Assembly (NCBI GenBank): GCA_963832745.1
Contig: CAWHVC010000005.1
Location: 582,590-646,589, forward strand
Direction: 5' to 3'
Origin: Candidatus Bathyarchaeota archaeon
Lineage (GTDB): Archaea; Thermoproteota; Bathyarchaeia; Bathyarchaeales; Bathycorpusculaceae
DNA: 64,000 bases
Part shown: one piece after another, positions 37,303 to 46,205 of the stretch
How positions within the stretch are numbered: the stretch's first letter is position 1
Layout: each line of letters starts with the position of its first letter
Translations under genes and position numbers: made by a program
Notes under the pieces: generated by a model
Seen by the model: the letters and a program-made list of their open reading frames with translations, nothing else
What the model was told of the DNA's origin: nothing
Database searches by the model: none

Positions 37303-37997
37303 GTGAGCAAATTGTTGTTTCAAAGGTTGAAGAATTAATGCGGTCACTTGACCAAGTTAAAAAATACAAAGCACTTTCACATCTGATGGTTGATTTCCTA
37401 TTTATCGTATTGTCATCTGTTGCTGCTTTGTTAGCCTTTGAGCTTGCAGTCAACTTTTTGCATCTATCAGGGGCTTTTCAGGGTTATTTTGAAGGCCTAA
37501 CAACTTTAACGACAAGGTCTTTGACGAGCACTAGCCAAAACAATCTTTTCGCCATCCTTGTTCCAGGATTGGGGGTGCTGGCTGGAGTTGCATGGGTAGA
37601 TTACAAACTTAAGAAAGTCGAAGTAAACACTTGGAAGAGCACTATGCAAGAAGGTTTTCCTGGAGCGCTCAAGCTTCTGCAAGACTTAGATTGGAACGCC
37701 GTTCTGCAAGACATTCGCACTTCCAAAATCGTATATGTTCTATATGCTGTTGCAAAAGTGATGGGCAATTGGATACTTGCAGCAATAATTCTCATAATTC
37801 CATTAGGTTTCGGTCTTTCGTTTATTCATGCCACATTAAACATGTACCTCTTTGCATTCTTGTCCCTAATCCTTGCCCTTGTGCTGACTAGAAAAGACCT
37901 TCAGAAAAAATATCAACAAATAACCTCCTTAGACGCTTTGCTCTGGGAGCTACGGTGGTTCAACAGTGAGTTCAAAACAGCCGAATTCCAAACCTGA
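37299..37997 (+). CDS. Four-TM membrane protein
   Basis: Four hydrophobic segments; ATGA overlap with the upstream gene. Confidence 0.75.
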   Translation: MSEQIVVSKVEELMRSLDQVKKYKALSHLMVDFLFIVLSSVAALLAFELAVNFLHLSGAFQGYFEGLTTLTTRSLTSTSQNNLFAILVPGLGVLAGVAWVDYKLKKVEVNTWKSTMQEGFPGALKLLQDLDWNAVLQDIRTSKIVYVLYAVAKVMGNWILAAIILIIPLGFGLSFIHATLNMYLFAFLSLILALVLTRKDLQKKYQQITSLDALLWELRWFNSEFKTAEFQT

Positions 37998-38251
37998 CCT
38001 CTACGTAGTCGCACGCATAATAAGCGTCTTAAAAAGAGAGAGGCAGTACAAAGAGGACAGAGCTTGCATGCATCACAGGCGTTGCTTACGATAGACTCCA
38101 AAAATACGTGGAGTGGATGAGCCACGAAGACCTGCTTAAACTTGATGAGGAGGGCAATGTTGCTTTGACCAAGCATGGATTGGAAACGTATGACAACTTG
38201 GTTAAGTGGATTCTGCGATATGTCGGAAAACTAAAGTTCCCCAGGTTTTAA
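37966..38251 (+). pseudogene. Winged-helix transcription regulator with a +1 frameshift in an A5 run
   Basis: MSSKQPNSKPDLYVVARIISVLK / ERGSTKRTELACITGVAYDRLQKYVEWM...VALTKHG; A5 at 38031-38035. Confidence 0.75.
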
Positions 38252-38256
38252 ACCAG

Positions 38257-38335
38257 CCTATTTGCAGTCTATTTGGATCCTATTAGAAATGGTATGCAGA
38301 AACCTATAGGGGGTAGATCAGTTTGGCGCTTTTTT
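38257..38335 (+). repeat. Dispersed intergenic repeat, copy B
   Basis: CTATTTGGATCCTATTAGAAATGGTATGCAGAAACCTATAGGGGGTAGATCAGTTTGGCGCTTTTT; nearly identical to 46975-47043. Confidence 0.88.
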
Positions 38336-38387
38336 AACCCAAAAACACGCCTGCACAAAAGCAGTCAAGAAAGGCAGGCCCCACCAT

Positions 38388-39206
38388 TTAGTCGTGTGAC
38401 CCACAGTTTTTCATTAGACCAGCAAGCTCTTCCATTTTCAGTGGAGTGGGCACCGTAAAGTAGTCATTGCATACTATTTTTTGTGCAAGATTGCGGTAGA
38501 CTTCTGCCTGCGTTGAGTTGGTGTCGTAGTCGATAACAGTTTTTCCTGTTAGCTCGGCACGTTGCACAATGCTGTCTTTGGGTATTGAACGGATTAGTTT
38601 ACTTTTTATGCGTCTTGCAAACTGTGAAACAAGAAACTCTTCATCGCCGCTAACACTTGAGTTGCAGATGATTCCACCTAAGCGAACAGTTCCTTGTTCA
38701 GCAAATTTTTTGATTACTTTGCAAAGGTTGTTTGCGGCATACAGGGATGTAAAGTCTCCCGAAACTTCAAGATAGATTTCCTGAGCACAGCTTTCACGTA
38801 TTGGCATGGTTAAATCGCCGCTGGATAGGTCTCCGGGCACATCAAAAAAGACAAAGTCCAAATCATCTTCGTATATGCCCATTTCGGACAGCGCATCTAT
38901 TGAGTAGGTTACTCCTCGCCCGGCAAAGCCAGCGCCCAATTCAGGTCCGCCCGACTCAACGCAAGCTACCCCTCCAAAACCAGTTGAGCAAATCATTTCT
39001 GGAGAGTATTGTTCGCCGTATGTGCGTAGGACTTCTTGTACGGTGGCTTGCTGTTTTCCATGAAGCAGTAAACGAGTGCAGTCAGCTTTAGGGTCGCAAC
39101 CCAGCAGCAGAACCTGTTTGCCTCTTTCAGCCAACGCTGCCACTGTGTTTTGTGTTGTCGTGGTTTTGCCTATGCCTGCTTTTCCGTAAATTGCTATTTG
39201 CCGCAT
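38388..39206 (-). CDS. NifH paralog lacking both [4Fe-4S] cysteine ligands
   Basis: Colinear with 44293..45111 (both 272 aa); GKAGIGKT and GCDPKAD kept; GVGCGGRG becomes GAGFAGRG and DVVCGGF becomes DLSSGDL. Confidence 0.9.
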   Translation of the reverse strand: MRQIAIYGKAGIGKTTTTQNTVAALAERGKQVLLLGCDPKADCTRLLLHGKQQATVQEVLRTYGEQYSPEMICSTGFGGVACVESGGPELGAGFAGRGVTYSIDALSEMGIYEDDLDFVFFDVPGDLSSGDLTMPIRESCAQEIYLEVSGDFTSLYAANNLCKVIKKFAEQGTVRLGGIICNSSVSGDEEFLVSQFARRIKSKLIRSIPKDSIVQRAELTGKTVIDYDTNSTQAEVYRNLAQKIVCNDYFTVPTPLKMEELAGLMKNCGSHD

Positions 39207-39243
39207 TTTCCTTTCCTCGTTTTTTGGTATGCATGGTTATTGC

Positions 39244-39285
39244 TATTTAAAAGAGTAGTTGTGAAGTTTTCACAAGTGTTCACAC
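39244..39285 (-). promoter_or_regulatory. TATA box plus palindromic operator of the nifH paralog
   Basis: TTTTAAATA on the minus strand; TTGTGAA-GTT-TTCACAA at 39259-39275; extra GTTCACA half-site. Confidence 0.75.
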
Positions 39286-39330
39286 TTTACATGAATAATT
39301 CTGCACAATTCACACTTAAGCTGAGCACGG

Positions 39331-40653
39331 TTAACACTTGTACAATAATTCAAGCATTTTTCTAAACAATTTTATAAACAAAAAACAAAAAAAGGAACAG
39401 TTATGCGTTATTGAACAATCACAGGAAACCCATTGCCAGTGGTCAACGAAAAGTTTCAGTTCCTGCAACAAAGCTTTGAATTCTTCATCGCTAATCGACG
39501 TACTTCTCCCTGATGCATATATGTCTTTGATTTTGTTCAAAACTGCTGTCACGGTTTCTGTGTCGGGGTCTGTACCTGTGAATTCAAAGATTTTGTGTTT
39601 AATGATTGTTTTGCCAGATTGCTTTCCAACGCTCAAATGCCGCGAGTTTCCTACAAGTTCTGGCGGATACGGCTCATAAGTCCAAGGGTCACTCAAAACA
39701 GCGTAAGTATGGATACCGGATTCATGCATAAAACCGTACTTACCCACAATAGCCTTGTTTGATGGAATCTCAAACCCAACCGCTGTGCTAATGAAGTCTG
39801 CAACCTGTTTGAGTTTTTCAGTTTTGCCTTCAAACTTGCGTACGCCATAATGCAGATACAGGTTGAGAAGGATTTTTTCGGTTTCAGCGTTTCCAGCCCG
39901 CTCGCCTATGCCCAAAAAGGTTGTGTTGATGTAAAGCTTGTCCCATAATCCCGAGGCTGCTTGAACAGCAGCTAAACTATTGCCAATAGCGTTACCAAAA
40001 TCATCATGCATGTGGATACCTAACGCTTTGATGTTGGTTTCCTTTTTGAGCATCCATATCTTTCTTGGAATACCAAAAGGCAACGGTGCAGCAGTGTCTG
40101 GAAGCCCAACTCCTACGGTGTCACAAACACGGTAACATTCGGCGCCTGCATCCGCAACAGCATTAACAAACTTTTTCTCAAAAGCCCAGTCTGCCCTTGT
40201 GCCGTCTTCGCCGTGAACAAAAGTGCGTAAACCATGAGTTTTAGCAGCGTATTCTACCACGTCAACTACATTTGCAAGAAGTTCCTCAAAGGTCTTGTGT
40301 GGCCATTTAGCTTGCATGTGAAGAAAAGAAACAGGGTGAGAAATGCCGACCTCGTCAAAACCAAGGTCAATAGCGCTGTCAACGTCGGCTTTGATGGTTC
40401 GGCACCAAGCGCTGATGCGGCAGTCAAGTTTGAGGCGCATGATTTGCCTGACAGCTTCTTTGTCAGGTTCTTGGTAATGAAACAGTTCGAGCCGTTGAGC
40501 GCCGACGCTACATAGGAGTTGCGCGGTTTGGGCCGCATCTTTGGGTTTAAAGGCGACGCCTGCCATTTGGGCGCCGTCCCGCAAAGTGGTATCATCGATG
40601 ATTGGGTCAGTTTTTAGCGGGGGCATTTTGAAGTAGAAGTCTTCAAGCCTCAT
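39331..40653 (-). CDS. nifV: Homocitrate synthase-like (NifV/LeuA family)
   Basis: DTTLRDGAQ, HMHDDFG, GIGERAGN, HESGIH; position in the nif operon; C-terminal tail may be a frameshift artefact (alternative stop ~39408). Confidence 0.72.
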   Translation of the reverse strand: MRLEDFYFKMPPLKTDPIIDDTTLRDGAQMAGVAFKPKDAAQTAQLLCSVGAQRLELFHYQEPDKEAVRQIMRLKLDCRISAWCRTIKADVDSAIDLGFDEVGISHPVSFLHMQAKWPHKTFEELLANVVDVVEYAAKTHGLRTFVHGEDGTRADWAFEKKFVNAVADAGAECYRVCDTVGVGLPDTAAPLPFGIPRKIWMLKKETNIKALGIHMHDDFGNAIGNSLAAVQAASGLWDKLYINTTFLGIGERAGNAETEKILLNLYLHYGVRKFEGKTEKLKQVADFISTAVGFEIPSNKAIVGKYGFMHESGIHTYAVLSDPWTYEPYPPELVGNSRHLSVGKQSGKTIIKHKIFEFTGTDPDTETVTAVLNKIKDIYASGRSTSISDEEFKALLQELKLFVDHWQWVSCDCSITHNCSFFCFLFIKLFRKMLELLYKC

Positions 40654-40666
40654 CTCAAGTACATCC

Positions 40667-42004
40667 TTAGAATTCTTTGCGATCCATTATGGTGTTAACG
40701 ATTGTGTCTAGCAGTTGCAGTGTACCTCGGTAACCCATCATTGCACGTCTCTGGTAACCGAACCGGTCAGCTTGCGGGAAACCAACGCGAACCAGTGGGA
40801 TGCATTCATTTTTTGCGATGTATTTGCCTTTGTAGTCGCCGATTATCATGTCAACTTTGGATTCCTTGATTTTCTGGTGCAAATCAAGCAGGTCGCCGCC
40901 TACGATTATGTTTAGTTTTTCTGGTTCTGCATCGTACTCTTTTGCGATGGCTTCGATTTCAGGTGGGAACGTTTTATCGTCAAGGGTTGTCATTACATGG
41001 ACGGGTTGCATGCCAATTTCGTAAGCAAACCGTGTAAGGCCACTTACGATGTCCGGGTCGCCGAAAATTGCCACTTTAACACCGAAAACGTTCATGCTAC
41101 AGTCAGCGTAAGCGTCAACAAGCAGGTCACGTTCATCCATCAACGCTTCACTTGGTTTTTTGCCGGTTTGTCTTGTGACGTTTGATATGAATTCTTCCGT
41201 GCTTGCAATGCCAATTGGGGTGGGACCAAGGAACATGGGGATTCCAAAGCGTTCTTGCATAAAGTTAGCTGCCCCTTGACCTTCTCGTTTGCATATTGCA
41301 AAAGTGCCAAATGAGTTGGCAGAATCCGCGATTTCTTCGATTGTTGTGCCGCCTTTTGGAAATTCGGGTTTAGGCAATCGTAATGGCGCGTTTAGGGTTT
41401 GTGAAATGTCTGTTAGGTAGATTGCGTCTACTTCCATCAGTTCAAGCATATGCTTGATTTCCAGTACATCCCCGGGGTTAATCATGCCGGGAATAATGTT
41501 GATTTTGTTGGTGGGATGGGTCTTTTTCTCTGCAAGCTGGGTAACCATGGCTTTAATTGCGTTATCATAGCCGATTACGTGGTTGCCAACATAGCTGGGC
41601 GTGTTTATGGTCACAATTTTTGCTTTATTTGCAAGGTCCTTGTTCTCTGCACGGAAAGCTTTGGTTATACCGTGGATGTCATCACCTGTTGTTTCGCTTA
41701 GGCATGTTGTTATGACGGTTATTATTTCGGGATGCTTGCGTTCGATGATGTTTCCTAATGCTTGCTTTAAGTTGGATGCACCGCCGAAGATTGTGGCTTT
41801 TTCATGTAGTGAAGTGATTGCGACTTCTATGGGTTCACGAAAGTGCCGTGCCATAAGGTTCCGTGGATACGTGGAACAACCTTGCGAACCATGGACTAAG
41901 GGTACGCTACCATGGATACCAAGGGTTGCCCAGATTGCTCCAATTGGCTGGCACATTTTAGGGGCGTTAACTGAGACGCTTCTTTGGTGTGTGATTACAG
42001 TCAT
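40667..42004 (-). CDS. nifK: Nitrogenase beta subunit (group III-like, short N-terminus)
   Basis: All three P-cluster Cys (CQPIGA, HGSQGC, TTCLSET), TPSYVG and VGFP..DR. Confidence 0.9.
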   Translation of the reverse strand: MTVITHQRSVSVNAPKMCQPIGAIWATLGIHGSVPLVHGSQGCSTYPRNLMARHFREPIEVAITSLHEKATIFGGASNLKQALGNIIERKHPEIITVITTCLSETTGDDIHGITKAFRAENKDLANKAKIVTINTPSYVGNHVIGYDNAIKAMVTQLAEKKTHPTNKINIIPGMINPGDVLEIKHMLELMEVDAIYLTDISQTLNAPLRLPKPEFPKGGTTIEEIADSANSFGTFAICKREGQGAANFMQERFGIPMFLGPTPIGIASTEEFISNVTRQTGKKPSEALMDERDLLVDAYADCSMNVFGVKVAIFGDPDIVSGLTRFAYEIGMQPVHVMTTLDDKTFPPEIEAIAKEYDAEPEKLNIIVGGDLLDLHQKIKESKVDMIIGDYKGKYIAKNECIPLVRVGFPQADRFGYQRRAMMGYRGTLQLLDTIVNTIMDRKEF

Positions 42005-43381
42005 TTATTGTACCCCCGGTTGTTTGTTTATAAATTTCCAAGCTGGAGAATAAAGAGCCTTATACATGTCCTGAGCGAAACGTACGAAACCCTTGAACAT
42101 CATGTAGCCGCCTTTGCTGTCGTAATTGTGTCCGTTAATGAAGGGTATGCCAAACTTGTAAGAGAGGTATTTTTCTTTGGTGCCTGAAATGAACAAGTCG
42201 GGTTTGTATTGAACCATAGCTTCTTCCAATTCGACAGCGTTAGGGTTATCAATGACTAAGGTACCGTTTTTAACGCGGCTGATAATTTTCTCATAGTCAT
42301 CCTCATGGCCAAACGTGGTTGCAGAAACAACAATGTCCATGCCAAGTTCTTCCATTGGTTTTACCCAGTGCCAACTTCTTGGACCACCTTCATACATCAT
42401 AATTTTTTTGCCTTCGAACTTTTTAAGGTAGAAATCAATTTGTGGTTGAGTTTCAGCCAACTCTTTTGCGATGACTTCTTCAGCTTTTTCTTCTAAACCA
42501 AAGAACTTGGCAATTTTGCGCAAATCATCAGCAGTCTGTTGCATACCATAGAAGTCTACTTCAAGGTGTGGTGTGCCCCATTTGTCTTTCATCATTTCAG
42601 CAATGTACTTGGCGCTACGGGCGCATCGGATAATGTTTAGTTTGGCTTCGTGCATTTTGGCTATGTCATGAATCGACGCGTCACCAGTGAATGTGCAGAC
42701 TACTCGTAGACCCATTGCTTCAAGCACGGGCACGATTAGCCAGTCGTCGCCTTTGATGTTGTATTCACCGATTAGGTTTACATCATAGGGTGTTTTTTCT
42801 TCTAGGGCTTCGGTGCCGACGACTTGGTCAAAGAGTGTTTGGTTGCCCACATGGTGACCGATGCTTTGGCTGACTCCGTGGAAACCTGGACAGTTGAAGG
42901 CAACTACGGGTTTGCCGATTGTTTTGCTGGCACGTTTTGCCACGGCATTAATGTCATCACCGATTAAACCTGCAACACATGTAGCGTAAACAAACACTGC
43001 ATGTGCTTCAGGAAAAGCATTGTTTGATTCAATGATTGAGTCGTAAAGTTTCTTTTCTCCACCAAAGACAATGTTTGACTCTTTTAGGTCAGTTGAGAAC
43101 ATGTTAGCTGTGTGCAAGTCGGTTTTTGCAATATGTGGACGACTATCCCAAGTGTAGTAGGCGCAGCCGATGGGTCCATGCTGGAGCTGGATGGCGTCTT
43201 TGACTGGCCCACCGACGACACCTCTGCAACCTGCGAAGGCACAACCTCGTTCGGTCATGTCTCCTGGGATGGTGCTTATGTTGCAAGCCATACATTTTTC
43301 GGTGTCCTTATCGTCTTTTAGGTAAATGTGTTTTTTACGTTCTGGAACATTCTTATCGCATTCTGGTAATACAAACGGCAT
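42005..43381 (-). CDS. nifD: Nitrogenase alpha subunit (group III-like)
   Basis: P-cluster Cys (RGCAFAG, GPIGC, ATC); Val70, Arg96, SQSIGHH (Gln191/His195); cofactor ligands Cys275 (RCARS) and His442 (NGHNY). Confidence 0.92.
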   Translation of the reverse strand: MPFVLPECDKNVPERKKHIYLKDDKDTEKCMACNISTIPGDMTERGCAFAGCRGVVGGPVKDAIQLQHGPIGCAYYTWDSRPHIAKTDLHTANMFSTDLKESNIVFGGEKKLYDSIIESNNAFPEAHAVFVYATCVAGLIGDDINAVAKRASKTIGKPVVAFNCPGFHGVSQSIGHHVGNQTLFDQVVGTEALEEKTPYDVNLIGEYNIKGDDWLIVPVLEAMGLRVVCTFTGDASIHDIAKMHEAKLNIIRCARSAKYIAEMMKDKWGTPHLEVDFYGMQQTADDLRKIAKFFGLEEKAEEVIAKELAETQPQIDFYLKKFEGKKIMMYEGGPRSWHWVKPMEELGMDIVVSATTFGHEDDYEKIISRVKNGTLVIDNPNAVELEEAMVQYKPDLFISGTKEKYLSYKFGIPFINGHNYDSKGGYMMFKGFVRFAQDMYKALYSPAWKFINKQPGVQ

Positions 43382-44269
43382 TTATTTTCCTCCAACTTTT
43401 TTGGTGCAAGCAGCGTCTTTTTGAGCGGCATTATCTTTTCCAGGTATGCCTACGGCGTCGGCGCGGCATTGTATACAATTATGAAATTGAACCATGATTC
43501 CGCCACAAACATTTCTTACTAATTGGACGTCTTTTAGTGACGGCGCGGGTATGTCGGCAAATTTACCTTGTGGAATAAGCGGCATGACGTTCATGATGTA
43601 TGCGCCCCGTTCCTGCACGGCTTGGGCAACGTCAATTATGTGGTTTGAGTTTATGCCTGGAATAAACACAGTGTTAACTTTAACTGCCATGCCCAATTCT
43701 GCTGCTAAACTTAAGCCTTCAAGCTGGTTTTTGCTTAAGACTTCAAAACCTTCTTTGCCGTGCAATGTCTTGCCGTTATAGCGTACATAAGAATAGATTT
43801 GCTCACCTACTGCAGGGTCAACAGCGTTTATCGTAATGGTCAAAGCATTAACCCCCAAGTCTTTTATGGCACGGATTTTTTCAGGCAGCAATAAACCGTT
43901 TGTTGATAAGCATCGGGTTAAATGGGGAAATTCTTGCTGAACAAATCGCAGAGTTTCAAATGTTGCATCACTGGTTAATGGGTCACCTGGTCCTGAAATA
44001 CCTATAACACGCAGTTGTGGGTCACTTTTTGCTACGGCACGGACACGTTCTATGGCTTCTTTTGGCGTGATTAGTTTGCTTGTAACGCCTGGTCGGCTTT
44101 CGTTTGCGCAGTCAAACTTTCGTACGCAGTAGTTGCAGCCGATGTTGCAGTTGGGTACAACTGGAAGGTGTACTCGGGCAAACTTGTGGTGCGCATCAAC
44201 ACTGTAACAGGGATGCTCCTTTACAATTTGGGAGCACCGCTGTTGATACGCGGTTTTAGAACTAATCAT
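43382..44269 (-). CDS. nifB: Radical-SAM cofactor biosynthesis protein NifB (SAM domain only)
   Basis: HPC, CNIGCNYC, ESRPG, SGPGD, TITIN, CIQCRADA. Confidence 0.95.
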   Translation of the reverse strand: MISSKTAYQQRCSQIVKEHPCYSVDAHHKFARVHLPVVPNCNIGCNYCVRKFDCANESRPGVTSKLITPKEAIERVRAVAKSDPQLRVIGISGPGDPLTSDATFETLRFVQQEFPHLTRCLSTNGLLLPEKIRAIKDLGVNALTITINAVDPAVGEQIYSYVRYNGKTLHGKEGFEVLSKNQLEGLSLAAELGMAVKVNTVFIPGINSNHIIDVAQAVQERGAYIMNVMPLIPQGKFADIPAPSLKDVQLVRNVCGGIMVQFHNCIQCRADAVGIPGKDNAAQKDAACTKKVGGK

Positions 44270-44292
44270 TATCCTTGCACCTGTTCCAAGTT

Positions 44293-45190
<898 letters not shown>

Positions 45191-45418
45191 ATTTACAGTA
45201 ATAATGAATGCACGTCAACATATTTTATAAAATACTAAACAAATACTCCAGCAGTAAAGAAGTCACTAGTTAAACGTCAAAAAAGCCAAAAAAACAGCCG
45301 ACCAAACCAACCAAAAAATGGTTTATACAAGCCACATTTAAACATTTATAAACAAAACAAAGCCAAAAACAACCAAAAAAATAGGCAGGCAGGGTTAACA
45401 ACAGCCCCACCAAACATT

Positions 45419-45739
45419 TTACATGTTACTACTACTGCTTGAACTTGAGCTACTACTGCTACTCATGTATTCTTTGATTGTCGTTGCAGGCATAGTATGA
45501 GTATCAACCACGCCATCCATTGCACGAATTTTGTCACCTACAAAATGCAGTGCATTATCGTTGCTGTTTGCTTCAAACCAGATTGCAATGTCCCAGTCAC
45601 CGAAAACGTTATAGGAACCTGAAATGTTTACGCCGTTCATCGGGTTTTGCGACAGATTTGTGAATGCATTAAAGAAAGCGTTTGTTTTCAATGGGTTTAA
45701 CTTTATTAAAACTAGATATTTTTGCATGTTTTTTTGCAT
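45419..45739 (-). CDS. Stand-alone Lrp/AsnC ligand-binding (RAM-like) domain protein with poly-Ser tail
   Basis: YLVLIK...YNVFGDWDI......KIRAMDGVVDTHT; no HTH; 12 consecutive Ser. Confidence 0.7.
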   Translation of the reverse strand: MQKNMQKYLVLIKLNPLKTNAFFNAFTNLSQNPMNGVNISGSYNVFGDWDIAIWFEANSNDNALHFVGDKIRAMDGVVDTHTMPATTIKEYMSSSSSSSSSSSSNM

Positions 45740-45818: not shown

Positions 45819-46097
45819 TTATTGCAGAAAAGACAGCGCTGCTTTTATTTTGGCTTGGCATTTAACGCATTTTTCCATAAAATCCTCACGATGCAATGGG
45901 CCACACGAGTCACATGAAAAGCGTTGTTCTGAATCATTGATGAAGCAGCAAACTGGATATTTGGTTGATTCTTTAAAGGCACCCAAGATTATGGATAGTT
46001 GGGCTGCTGCGTTACTGGATGCATCCTCGTCAGGTTCAAGGCCCATGCTGGATAATTGGTCTATTAAGTGGTCTAACCGCCGTTTTATGCTTGTCAA
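45819..46097 (-). CDS. Small Cys-containing hypothetical protein
   Basis: TTG start; VCC, CDSC and CVKC motifs. Confidence 0.55.
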   Translation of the reverse strand: MTSIKRRLDHLIDQLSSMGLEPDEDASSNAAAQLSIILGAFKESTKYPVCCFINDSEQRFSCDSCGPLHREDFMEKCVKCQAKIKAALSFLQ

Positions 46098-46205
46098 ACC
46101 CTTTGCCCCACTCAAACAAGAGCAACAGCAAAGGCAAAATAAAAACTTAACCAACAAAAAAAGAAATTACTTCAATATCAAGCAAAAATTTTGAATTCAA
46201 CAATA

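What the first reader, a model, noticed from the sequence alone, without database searches (positions are those of the whole stretch)
38388..39206. Full-length cluster-less NifH paralog with its own copy of the nif promoter
Seen: same length and colinear with NifH, no stops, nucleotide-binding motifs largely kept (GKAGIGKT, CDPKAD, DVPGD) and the docking Arg100 kept. Both cluster ligands are replaced (Cys97 to Phe; Cys132 to Ser, with adjacent residues remodelled). Established: these two Cys bind the bridging [4Fe-4S] cluster needed for electron transfer. Inference: a non-redox pseudo-Fe protein. It could act as a switch-off decoy replacing the absent NifI1/I2, as a heterodimer partner, or as an ATPase chaperone for cofactor or P-cluster assembly replacing NifEN functions. 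I know of no characterised example.
Basis: partly seen in the sequence, partly recalled or inferred. Interest (0 to 1): 0.88.

Follow-up and report, generated by a model that had tools for sequence, protein, structure and literature searches.

The report
Cysteine-less nifH duplicate in archaeal nif cluster
An archaeal nitrogen-fixation gene cluster ends with a second, separately promoted copy of the nitrogenase iron protein that has lost the cysteines that hold its iron-sulfur cluster yet is still kept intact by selection, so it probably works as a non-electron-carrying helper of nitrogenase.

Summary
On the minus strand, 38388-39206 encodes a 272-aa NifH paralog (NifH2). It is 65% identical and gap-free to the canonical NifH1 at 44293-45111. 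It has Phe for Cys97 and Ser for Cys132, and it carries its own copy of a promoter/operator module found only twice in the 3.02-Mb genome.

New facts:
- NifH2 belongs to a small clade: 6 database clusters plus one genomic ortholog. The clade arose by duplication inside Bathyarchaeia NifH.
- All members carry G11A, L127P, G134D, A136T and V150E, positions invariant in 142 other NifH. Four members keep both cysteines, two lack Cys132 only, and the window copy lacks both.
- dN/dS against the syntenic ortholog is 0.11 (nifH1 0.09), so the gene is not decaying.
- It is accessory. Only 2 of 16 nifH-bearing genomes of the family have it, and two syntenic relatives lack it cleanly.
- The nucleotide-site residues are intact. 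Changes concentrate on the cluster/switch II side.

Best reading (about 0.4): a nif-co-regulated, non-redox nucleotide-switch protein that acts on NifDK, most likely in cofactor maturation in this NifEN-less system. The rivals are a decoy/modulator, a heterodimer partner and a dispensable remnant. I rate it a new variant of a known kind, of moderately high interest.

The parts
38388..39206 (-). nifH2: 272-aa NifH paralog lacking both [4Fe-4S] ligands (F94 = Av Cys97, codon 38925-38927; S129 = Av Cys132, codon 38820-38822)
39259..39282 (-). nifH2 operator TGAACACTTGTGAAAACTTCACAA, containing the perfect palindrome TTGTGAA-N3/4-TTCACAA
   Evidence: one of only two such sites in the genome
39244..39253 (-). 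TATA-like box CTTTTAAATA of nifH2; 37 nt from its end to the ATG, the same spacing as at nifH1
   Evidence: read from the sequence; function inferred
39213..39218 (-). Shine-Dalgarno-like GAGGAA within the shared ACGAGGAA
   Evidence: read from the sequence; function inferred
38341..38345 (-). T5 run about 45 nt after the nifH2 stop, a possible archaeal terminator
   Evidence: read from the sequence; function inferred
38344..39331 (-). approximately 990-bp segment (promoter + nifH2 + about 44 bp) that is absent from the syntenic loci L013 and L016
39331..40653 (-). homocitrate-synthase-like gene (nifV-like; HMGL-like + HCS_D2), immediately upstream of nifH2
   Evidence: TIGR02660 271 bits, below its cut-off of 463
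40667..42004 (-). nifK (445 aa)
42005..43381 (-). nifD (458 aa)
   Evidence: (TIGR01862 601 bits, above its cut-off)
43382..44269 (-). short nifB (295 aa, radical SAM, no NifX domain)
   Evidence: TIGR01290 342.3 bits against cut-off 343.65
44293..45111 (-). nifH1: canonical Fe protein with both Cys
   Evidence: TIGR01287 430.8 bits, above its cut-off of 394.35
45164..45187 (-). nifH1 operator TGAACGATTGTGAACATTTCACAA, followed by CTTTTAAATA at 45149-45158

Best explanation
nifH2 is a functional, lineage-specific duplicate of the nitrogenase Fe-protein gene. It arose within Bathyarchaeia and took a copy of the nif promoter/operator with it, so it is made together with NifHBDKV. The founder of the clade already carried changes in the P-loop (G11A) and in the switch II path that links the nucleotide site to the cluster (L127P, G134D, A136T, V150E). 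In the sub-lineage of this window the cluster ligands were then lost, Cys132 first and Cys97 later. The protein therefore cannot hold the canonical subunit-bridging [4Fe-4S] cluster and cannot be the electron donor. It keeps the NifH fold, the deviant Walker A lysines, the switch I and Walker B aspartates, and Arg100 and Arg140. The inference is that it still binds, and perhaps hydrolyses, ATP and still docks on the only NifD/K-type partner in the genome, NifDK. The most likely job is a non-redox, nucleotide-dependent accessory role in NifDK maturation, in a system where NifDK must serve as its own cofactor scaffold because NifEN is absent. This could mean holding apo-NifDK open, or delivering Mo/homocitrate; the gene sits directly after the homocitrate-synthase gene. 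NifH1 would supply the electrons. What is shown: duplication, co-localisation, the shared operator, ligand loss, purifying selection and retained nucleotide-site residues. What is inferred: ATP binding, docking on NifDK and the maturation role.
For: (1) It is real and selected. dN/dS between the window and L010 is 0.11 by NG86 and 0.054 by YN00, with dS about 1. This compares with nifH1 0.092, nifB 0.092 and nifK 0.108. Both sequences lack Cys132, so selection has continued after ligand loss. The window lineage is not faster than its sister: end branch 0.12 against 0.14 + 0.02-0.04.
(2) It is co-regulated. The 24-nt operator occurs only at the nifH1 and nifH2 promoters in the whole genome. The operator-TATA-ATG spacing is identical at both. 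The motif is kept upstream of nifH2 in L010 and upstream of nifH1 in most Bathyarchaeia loci.
(3) The partner is restricted. NifD and NifK are the only PF00148 proteins in the genome, and there are only two NifH-like genes.
(4) The changes are patterned. Of 99 positions (nearly) invariant in 142 canonical NifH, P0001 changes 22. Of those, 17 fall within Av 93-164 (cluster loop, switch II, helix 152-164), a stretch that holds 43 of the 99 positions; Fisher p = 4.6e-4. K10, K15, D39, K41, D43, D125, D129, R100, R140, N185, Q218 and Q236 are kept.
(5) The fold is intact. AF2 gives pLDDT 88.3 and pTM 0.89, and Foldseek gives TM 0.95 to A. vinelandii Fe protein.
(6) Precedent. In the NifEN-less Roseiflexus system, NifH, NifB and apo-NifDK suffice for cofactor synthesis on NifDK (PMC11573651, abstract and passages). 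NifH is described as a Mo/homocitrate insertase with Mo seen at the gamma-phosphate position of the nucleotide site (PMC9571451, passages). Recalled, and seen here only as reference-list entries: Rangaraj et al. 1997 and 1999 reported that apo-NifH and several catalytically dead NifH variants still work in FeMo-co synthesis.
Against: (1) It is not needed for a nifHBDKV cluster to persist. Only 2 of the 16 family genomes with a NifH match carry a second copy. L013 and L016, which share the flanking genes, lack it cleanly. None of the other Bathyarchaeia nif loci held has it within the locus.
(2) The review passages seen state that all assembly functions of NifH need an electron source and ATP-coupled electron transfer (PMC9571451). 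A cluster-less protein could not do this by itself.
(3) The four other clade members keep both Cys. The ancestral NifH2 function therefore probably used the cluster, and the Cys-less trio may have changed or be losing function. The trio evolves 1.2-5 times faster than those members (path lengths) and about 2.4 times faster than nifH1.
(4) G11A, L127P, R213K and S16T lie at or near the nucleotide site and could impair ATP handling.
(5) There are no expression data and no binding data. The Phe94 state comes from a single assembly, and that assembly shows a possible homopolymer indel nearby.
Confidence: 0.4

Rival explanations
1. Competitive NifDK binder (decoy, brake or protective cap). NifH2 docks on the NifH site of NifDK without transferring electrons. 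It thereby tunes or blocks turnover, or shields the P-cluster face. This would stand in for post-translational control in a genome with no NifI1/I2 in the cluster.
For: Arg100 and Arg140 are kept while the cluster is lost. The whole clade has L127P in switch II. Engineered deletion of Leu127 gives a non-ATP-hydrolysing Fe protein that forms a tight complex with MoFe protein (PMC10207099, passages). There is no P-II gene in the cluster and only one weak P-II-like hit in the genome.
Against: The gene is driven by the same operator/promoter as nifH1, so the supposed inhibitor would be induced together with its target and no separate switch-off signal is visible. L127P is a substitution, not the deletion. 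The docking helix after Arg100 differs from NifH1 (I103T, T104Y and others). Most relatives do without the gene.
Confidence: 0.2
2. Heterodimer partner. NifH2 pairs with NifH1 to give a dimer with only two Cys ligands. This would have no cluster or an altered one, and would act as a poison subunit or a modified reductase.
For: The two proteins are 65% identical, gap-free, of equal length and co-expressed from like promoters. The signature Lys10 that acts across the dimer is kept.
Against: Helix 152-164 and switch II carry clade-specific changes (E154D, M156T, A157S, I164L, G134D, F135L). From my recollection of the Fe-protein structures, not from any call here, this helix and switch II line the dimer interface, so the changes would argue for a diverged interface. 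A poison subunit made from the same promoter as its target has no obvious benefit. No tool here could separate homo- from heterodimer.
Confidence: 0.1
3. Dispensable remnant. The duplicate once was a second reductase, as the Cys-containing clade members may still be. In this sub-lineage it has lost that function and is on its way to deletion, as has already happened in close relatives.
For: The gene is cleanly absent from L013 and L016 despite shared flanks. It is present in only 2 of 16 nifH-bearing family genomes. Ligand loss is stepwise: Cys132, then Cys97. The Cys-less trio has about twice as many changes at canonical invariant positions (22-23) as the Cys-containing members (11-15). It scores below the NifH equivalog cut-off.
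Against: dN/dS is 0.11 over dS of about 1, with no stop or frameshift in either of the two DNA sequences. The promoter, operator, SD-like site and start codon are conserved in both genomes. Nucleotide-site residues are all retained. There is no rate acceleration on the window branch.
Confidence: 0.15
4. Still a metalloprotein. NifH2 binds a different cluster or metal through new ligands and keeps some redox or metal-delivery role. Candidate ligands are Asp134 in the whole clade, Cys at the Lys143 position in this copy, and the Cys gained at local 246 and 268 in the trio.
For: G134D is fixed in all 7 clade members. C246 and C268 are shared by the three Cys132-less sequences, and C140 is unique to the window copy. 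P0003 and L010 keep Cys97.
Against: No geometry could be checked because no coordinates are returned. Positions 246 and 268 are variable in NifH generally. Three sequences 81-83% identical give little power. The window copy lost Cys97 as well.
Confidence: 0.07

Closest known systems
Canonical nitrogenase Fe protein NifH (e.g. A. vinelandii Av2; here NifH1 at 44293-45111)
   Same: Same fold (Foldseek TM 0.95) and same length. 65% identity to NifH1. The deviant Walker A lysines, switch I and Walker B aspartates, Arg100 and Arg140 are kept. It is nested inside the Bathyarchaeia NifH clade.
   Different: Both [4Fe-4S] ligands are replaced. It has 22 changes at 99 positions that are (nearly) invariant in 142 NifH, including G11A, L127P, G134D, A136T and V150E. 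It scores below the TIGR01287 cut-off (350 against 394). It cannot be the electron donor.
NifEN-independent nifHBDK nitrogenase of Roseiflexus (PMC11573651) and the published Bathy-6 nifHBDK locus (PMC11697101)
   Same: Same gene order nifH-nifB-nifD-nifK, short NifB and no NifEN. The Bathy-6 paper places these NifDK with the Chloroflexaceae clade (passages).
   Different: The described systems use one NifH. A second, Cys-less NifH after a homocitrate-synthase gene is not mentioned in the passages I saw. That paper's supplementary locus figure could not be read.
Engineered Fe-protein variants: apo-NifH, A157S, M156C, D129E, L127-deletion
   Same: NifH2 carries natural counterparts. It has no cluster ligands, A157S and M156T, D129E in the L010 ortholog, and a change at Leu127. 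L127-deletion forms a tight, non-hydrolysing complex with MoFe protein (PMC10207099, passages). Recalled from Rangaraj et al. 1997/1999 and Gavini and Burgess 1992, none of which was read here: apo-NifH and A157S still support FeMo-co synthesis.
   Different: Those are single laboratory mutations in a reductase. NifH2 is a natural, selected paralog that combines many such changes beside an intact NifH1.
Other NifH-family paralogs (BchL/ChlL, BchX, CfbC, MarH, IsrH, group VI NflH, Paenibacillus NifH-like)
   Same: They are paralogous P-loop dimer proteins that partner NifDK-like proteins.
   Different: In the passages seen, each of these groups is described as keeping the two Cys equivalent to Cys97 and Cys132 (PMC13474568; PMC3961195). 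NifH2 scores below their cut-offs (CfbC 303 against 402; BchL 181 against 345) and is phylogenetically a NifH.
Cluster-free SIMIBI dimer ATPases (MinD/ParA/Get3 type)
   Same: They share the deviant Walker A motif with the signature lysine. Like them, NifH2 has no covalent metal bridge, so its dimerisation would have to depend on nucleotide (inference). There are weak family matches to MinD and ParA models.
   Different: The matches are far below their cut-offs (MinD_arch 68 against 202). By descent NifH2 is a NifH, not a MinD.

Membership tests
NifH, nitrogenase iron protein (NCBIfam TIGR01287 equivalog) | Whole-protein score above the curated cut-off (394.35 bits) | tested here: not met
   P0001 scores 350.1 bits. 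The Cys-containing clade member P0004 scores 386.7. NifH1 (P0002) scores 430.8.
NifH, nitrogenase iron protein | Two Cys per subunit (Av Cys97, Cys132) ligating the subunit-bridging [4Fe-4S] cluster | tested here: not met
   Phe and Ser are at these positions. Of the 148 NifH-family proteins examined, 146 have both Cys. The two exceptions are P0001 and P0003.
NifH, nitrogenase iron protein | Invariant switch [14 protein letters not shown] linking the nucleotide site to the cluster | tested here: not met
   P0001 has DVPGDLSSGDLT. L127, V131, C132, G134, F135 and A136 are identical in 142/142 canonical sequences.
NifH, nitrogenase iron protein | Walker A with Lys10/Lys15; switch I Asp39/Asp43; Walker B Asp125/Asp129 | tested here: met
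   All are present in P0001. The deviations are G11A and S16T within the P-loop.
NifH, nitrogenase iron protein | NifH fold | tested here: met
   AF2 gives pLDDT 88.3 and pTM 0.89. The top Foldseek hits are Fe proteins with TM 0.93-0.95. The NifH1 control model is equally confident and shows the same low-confidence cluster loop.
NifH, nitrogenase iron protein | ATP-dependent electron transfer to NifDK | not testable with these tools
   This needs purified proteins. It is excluded in its canonical form by the loss of the ligands (inference).
Pfam PF00142 Fer4_NifH (NifH/frxC superfamily) | Score above the gathering threshold (25 bits) | tested here: met
   318.9 bits, covering residues 2-268.
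Bathyarchaeia NifH2 clade (defined here) | G11A, L127P, G134D, A136T and V150E together; monophyly | tested here: met
   All five changes are present in all 7 members and in none of 142 other NifH. The clade has 100/100 support. The profile-score gap is 566-587 bits for members against 479 or less for others.
CfbC / BchL / BchX (other NFL reductases) | Score above the family cut-off | tested here: not met
   CfbC 303.1 against 402; BchL 181.1 against 345; BchX 164.6 against 331.
MinD/ParA-type ATPases | Score above the family cut-off | tested here: not met
   minD_arch 68.3 against 201.75; ParA_partition 29.7 against 180.

The most novel reading that the evidence does not exclude
NifH2 is a naturally evolved, cluster-free 'assembly-only' Fe protein. 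It would be an ATP-switch chaperone or Mo/homocitrate insertase that matures FeMo-co directly on NifDK in a NifEN-less archaeal nitrogenase. The catalytic and biosynthetic roles that one NifH normally combines would thus be split between two paralogs. If true, it would be a natural answer to the old dispute over whether the [4Fe-4S] cluster of NifH is needed for its maturation roles. It would also be a candidate helper for minimal nif gene sets.
Probability: 0.3. Interest if true: 0.85.

Novelty: new variant of a known kind. Interest (0 to 1): 0.64.

Why it matters
In the review passages I saw, every described group of NifH-type reductases keeps the two cluster cysteines. This copy lacks both. 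The ortholog it was compared with already lacks Cys132, and selection has persisted between them. It is co-regulated with a minimal nifHBDKV set, so a function of the Fe-protein scaffold that does not need electron transfer has probably been selected in nature.

That bears on two open questions. First, which of NifH's roles (electron donor, P-cluster maturation, Mo/homocitrate insertion) need the cluster. Second, how NifEN-less nitrogenases assemble FeMo-co on NifDK. Both can be tested with the kind of in vitro reconstitution already published for Roseiflexus.

The clade also gives a graded natural series: both Cys, one Cys, none. The shared nif operator is a handle on nitrogen-fixation control in Bathyarchaeia, for which the regulator is unknown. 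The importance is limited by rarity. The clade has 7 sequences, and only 2 of 16 nifH-bearing relatives have the gene, so it is an accessory and not a core part of the pathway.

Tried and rejected
Pseudogene or assembly artefact: rejected. The frame is open, dN/dS is 0.11, the promoter and start are conserved, and a syntenic ortholog shares the Ser132 state with many synonymous differences.

Foreign insertion: rejected. GC and GC3 match the cluster, and the gene nests inside Bathyarchaeia NifH.

Gene conversion between nifH1 and nifH2 that could distort the tree or dN/dS: no signal in the window. Third-position identity is 0.45 for codons 1-60 and 0.42 for codons 61-269. In L010 the first 135 nt of H2 against H1 are 88% identical, so slight conversion there cannot be excluded.

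Low AF2 confidence in the cluster loop as a sign of disorder specific to NifH2: rejected. The NifH1 control shows the same dip, with block 91-100 at 56 in both models.

Wider regulon for the operator: one-mismatch matches to the 17-nt palindrome number 7, equal to the reversed-pattern control. I did not follow them up.

Complex prediction with two copies of P0001 plus ATP: no verdict, score 0.00 in both runs, and controls were not run. This is no evidence either way. Docking on NifDK could not be sent because NifH2 x2 + NifD + NifK exceeds the 1000-residue limit.

The look-up of sequencing runs for window 38200-45400: none was listed and no RNA holder was listed. Read laying was therefore not used, and there is no evidence on expression.

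Metagenome-contig scan: no NifH2-type locus, best match 65%. The genomic context of P0003-P0007 therefore remains unseen.

Literature: searches found no description of a natural NifH lacking the cluster cysteines. This holds only for the held library and those terms. Supplements are closed, including the locus figure of PMC11697101. PMC23431 (Rangaraj 1997) is not held.
Full report
OBSERVATION. The ORF lies at 38388-39206 on the minus strand. It encodes 272 residues without a stop. It is the last gene of a minus-strand cluster:
- nifH1, 44293-45111
- a short nifB, 43382-44269
- nifD, 42005-43381
- nifK, 40667-42004
- a homocitrate-synthase-like gene, 39331-40653
- nifH2, 38388-39206

NifH2 (P0001) and NifH1 (P0002) have equal length and share 176/272 residues without a gap. 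Alignment to A. vinelandii Fe-protein chains fixes the numbering. Local F94 is Cys97, local S129 is Cys132, and Arg100 is kept. The surrounding loops are rebuilt: GAGFAGRG replaces GVGCGGRG, and DVPGDLSSGDLT replaces [12 protein letters not shown].

PROMOTER. The two nifH upstream regions align over about 90 nt. Both have TGAAC-N2-TTGTGAA-N4-TCACAA, then CTTTTAAATA, then exactly 37 nt to the ATG, including ACGAGGAA. With up to 2 mismatches the 24-nt operator occurs twice in the 3.02-Mb genome, at these two sites, and the reversed control pattern gives none. In the window the perfect 17-nt palindrome occurs at these two sites only, counted as 4 matches over both strands, against 0.22 expected by chance. 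The same module stands before nifH2 in the ortholog L010 and before nifH1 in most Bathyarchaeia nif loci held. A T5 run follows the nifH2 stop. nifH2 therefore has its own copy of a nif-specific control region. That it is a working promoter is inferred.

WHO ELSE HAS IT. The genome has only these two NifH-like genes. Its only PF00148 genes are NifD and NifK, so there is no NifEN. It has one weak P-II-like hit, on another contig.

In a 5.8-billion-protein collection the closest relatives of P0001 are five clusters, P0003 to P0007, at 83-73% identity. The next hits are canonical Bathyarchaeia NifH at 64-65%. A profile of the clade retrieves the same six clusters at 566-587 bits, and everything else scores 479 bits or less.

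Among species-representative genomes, one record (L010, a Bathyarchaeia MAG) has an 81% ortholog in the same place, after the nifV-like gene and 5.9 kb downstream of its nifH1. The metagenome contig scan found none.

Of 332 genomes of the family, 16 have a NifH match at E <= 1e-90. Only 2 of those 16, G000 and G245, have two copies. G245 has the same arrangement as L010 and may be the same genome.

L013 and L016 share the flanking genes and a nifHBDKV cluster that is 82-93% identical at protein level. In both, the sequence after the nifV-like gene continues directly with what lies 3' of nifH2 in the window. This is a clean indel of about 990 bp covering the promoter and the gene.

ORIGIN. In a maximum-likelihood tree of 43 NifH sequences, the seven NifH2 sequences form one clade (100/100). 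The clade sits on a long stem (0.35) nested within the Bathyarchaeia NifH clade, in an 18-row set supported at 98/93. NifH2 is thus a duplication within Bathyarchaeia followed by fast change. The three sequences lacking Cys132 (P0001, P0003, L010) form a sub-clade (100/99, stem 0.15).

WHAT CHANGED. Five changes occur in all NifH2 members and in none of 142 other NifH examined: G11A, L127P, G134D, A136T and V150E. P93L/I and I164L are nearly as specific.
- The four members P0004 to P0007 keep both cysteines.
- The trio adds V131S, C132S, F135L, E154D, A157S and N191D, and gains Cys at local 246 and 268.
- Only the window copy has C97F. It also has a unique Cys at the Lys143 position.

Of 99 positions (nearly) invariant in the 142 canonical sequences, the Cys-containing NifH2 members change 11-15, and the trio changes 22-23. 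In P0001, 17 of the 22 changes lie in Av 93-164, which holds 43 of the 99 positions; Fisher p = 4.6e-4. K10, K15, D39, K41, D43, D125, D129, R100, R140, N185, Q218 and Q236 are unchanged.

In 173 NifH-like places across all loci held, only the window's nifH2 and L010's nifH2 lacked a ligand cysteine. The window gene was counted three times there because of overlapping loci. P0001 falls below the NifH equivalog cut-off (350.1 against 394.35), as does the Cys-containing member P0004 (386.7); NifH1 passes at 430.8.

SELECTION. Between the window and L010, nifH2 has dN 0.106 and dS 0.97, so dN/dS is 0.11 by NG86 and 0.054 by YN00. The neighbours give nifH1 0.092, nifB 0.092, nifD 0.047 and nifK 0.108. 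Both sequences already lack Cys132, so purifying selection has continued without the canonical four-Cys site.

The protein evolves about twice as fast as NifH1: dN 0.106 against 0.052, and tree path 0.30 against 0.125. The window branch (0.12) is not longer than its sister's. I found no gene-conversion signal in the window. This is one DNA pair only, because the DNA of P0003 to P0007 could not be fetched.

STRUCTURE. AF2 predicts a confident NifH fold, with pLDDT 88.3 and pTM 0.89. Foldseek gives TM 0.93-0.95 to solved Fe proteins. Confidence is low in the cluster loop and moderate in switch II. The NifH1 control behaves the same way, so that dip says nothing specific.

HOW IT MOST LIKELY WORKS. 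The following is shown: a co-localised, co-regulated, selected NifH duplicate without the canonical cluster ligands but with an intact nucleotide site. The rest is inferred. NifH2 would remain a nucleotide-dependent switch protein, and it would dock on NifDK, the only NifD/K-type partner available.

With no NifEN, NifDK must be its own cofactor scaffold, as shown for Roseiflexus with NifH, NifB and apo-NifDK (PMC11573651, abstract and passages). NifH is also described as the Mo/homocitrate insertase, with Mo seen at the gamma-phosphate position of the nucleotide site (PMC9571451, passages). nifH2 lies directly after the homocitrate-synthase gene.

I therefore favour a non-redox accessory role in NifDK maturation, at about 0.4. 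Older work that I recall but could not read reported that apo-NifH and A157S NifH still support FeMo-co synthesis (Rangaraj 1997 and 1999, seen only in reference lists; Gavini and Burgess 1992, from no call). NifH2 naturally carries A157S and M156T.

Several points count against this reading:
- The review passages seen say that all assembly roles of NifH need an electron source.
- Most relatives with the same cluster lack NifH2.
- The Cys-containing clade members imply that the ancestral function used the cluster.

RIVALS.
- A competitive NifDK binder or brake, about 0.2. Arg100 is kept and switch II is altered at Leu127, whose engineered deletion gives a tight, non-hydrolysing complex (PMC10207099, passages). 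However, co-induction with its target from the same operator is odd for an off-switch.
- A heterodimer partner of NifH1, about 0.1.
- A dispensable remnant heading for deletion, about 0.15. It is supported by the patchy distribution and stepwise ligand loss, and opposed by dN/dS and the intact signals.
- A protein that binds another metal centre through Asp134 or the gained cysteines, about 0.07.

KNOWN OR NEW. The Bathy-6 nifHBDK locus is published (PMC11697101; passages seen). In the 2026 review passages seen, CfbC, group VI NflH, MarH and IsrH are each described with the two Cys equivalent to Cys97 and Cys132 (PMC13474568); the DPOR/COR passages I saw do not state the ligands. The same is said of the Paenibacillus NifH-like proteins (PMC3961195). 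My searches found no natural Cys-less NifH in the held library. I rate it a new variant of a known kind: a NifH-derived pseudo-reductase.

LIMITS. There is one DNA pair for dN/dS. The clade has seven sequences, and context is known for only two. There are no expression data (none listed). The complex prediction gave no verdict.

Noticed in passing
window 37966-38251 (+), just 3' of nifH2 and convergent with it: A small gene that looks like a winged-helix protein is split into 42-aa and 47-aa ORFs. The cause is one extra A in an A-run, relative to the intact copies in L013 and L016, which are 84% identical over the aligned columns. This is either a real frameshift or a homopolymer assembly error. 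No Pfam scan of this reading frame was made.
   Followed up: partly
window 45419-45739 (-) and 45819-46157 (-), upstream of nifH1: Two small ORFs are conserved upstream of nifH1 in L010, L013 and L016 at 82-92% protein identity. One is a 106-aa protein with an Lrp/AsnC ligand-binding-type or GYD-type domain, no HTH and a poly-Ser tail. The other is a 112-aa Cys-rich protein with no family match. They are candidate nif-linked regulators or sensors. The factor that binds the TTGTGAA-N4-TCACAA operator is unknown.
   Followed up: partly
L005 127-2286 (-); also L006-L009 (same-genus genomes): A 719-aa ORF fuses a NifH-like domain to a NifD/CfbD-like domain through a low-complexity linker. The NifH-like domain is 41-42% identical to P0001 and keeps both cluster Cys. 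The ORF lies next to an ABC-transporter ATPase gene. Such fusions were found in 5 of 201 sampled genomes of the order and not in the window's genome.
   Followed up: partly
window 44932-45111 (first 60 codons of nifH1) compared with L010: Synonymous sites at the 5' end of nifH1 are unusually conserved between genomes. Third-position identity is 0.87 in codons 1-60 against 0.67 in the rest. This suggests an extra constraint such as an RNA structure, translation initiation or gene conversion.
   Followed up: no
window 39331-39450 (C-terminal end of the nifV-like ORF): The homocitrate-synthase-like ORF ends in a Cys- and Phe-rich tail of about 35 residues. In the more distant Bathyarchaeia loci the alignments stop near residue 401-404. 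The tail may be a lineage-specific extension or a run-on of the reading frame.
   Followed up: no
G000 contig C3:805410-805652 (locus L180): This is the only P-II-like hit in the genome (31 bits, just over the Pfam cut-off). The organism therefore appears to lack NifI1/I2-type and typical GlnB/K-type regulators.
   Followed up: no
G000 C1:706750, C3:156966, C3:448827 (loci L175, L177, L178): These are one-mismatch matches to the nif operator palindrome. Their number equals the reversed-pattern control, so they may be chance. I did not check whether they lie upstream of nitrogen-assimilation genes.
   Followed up: no
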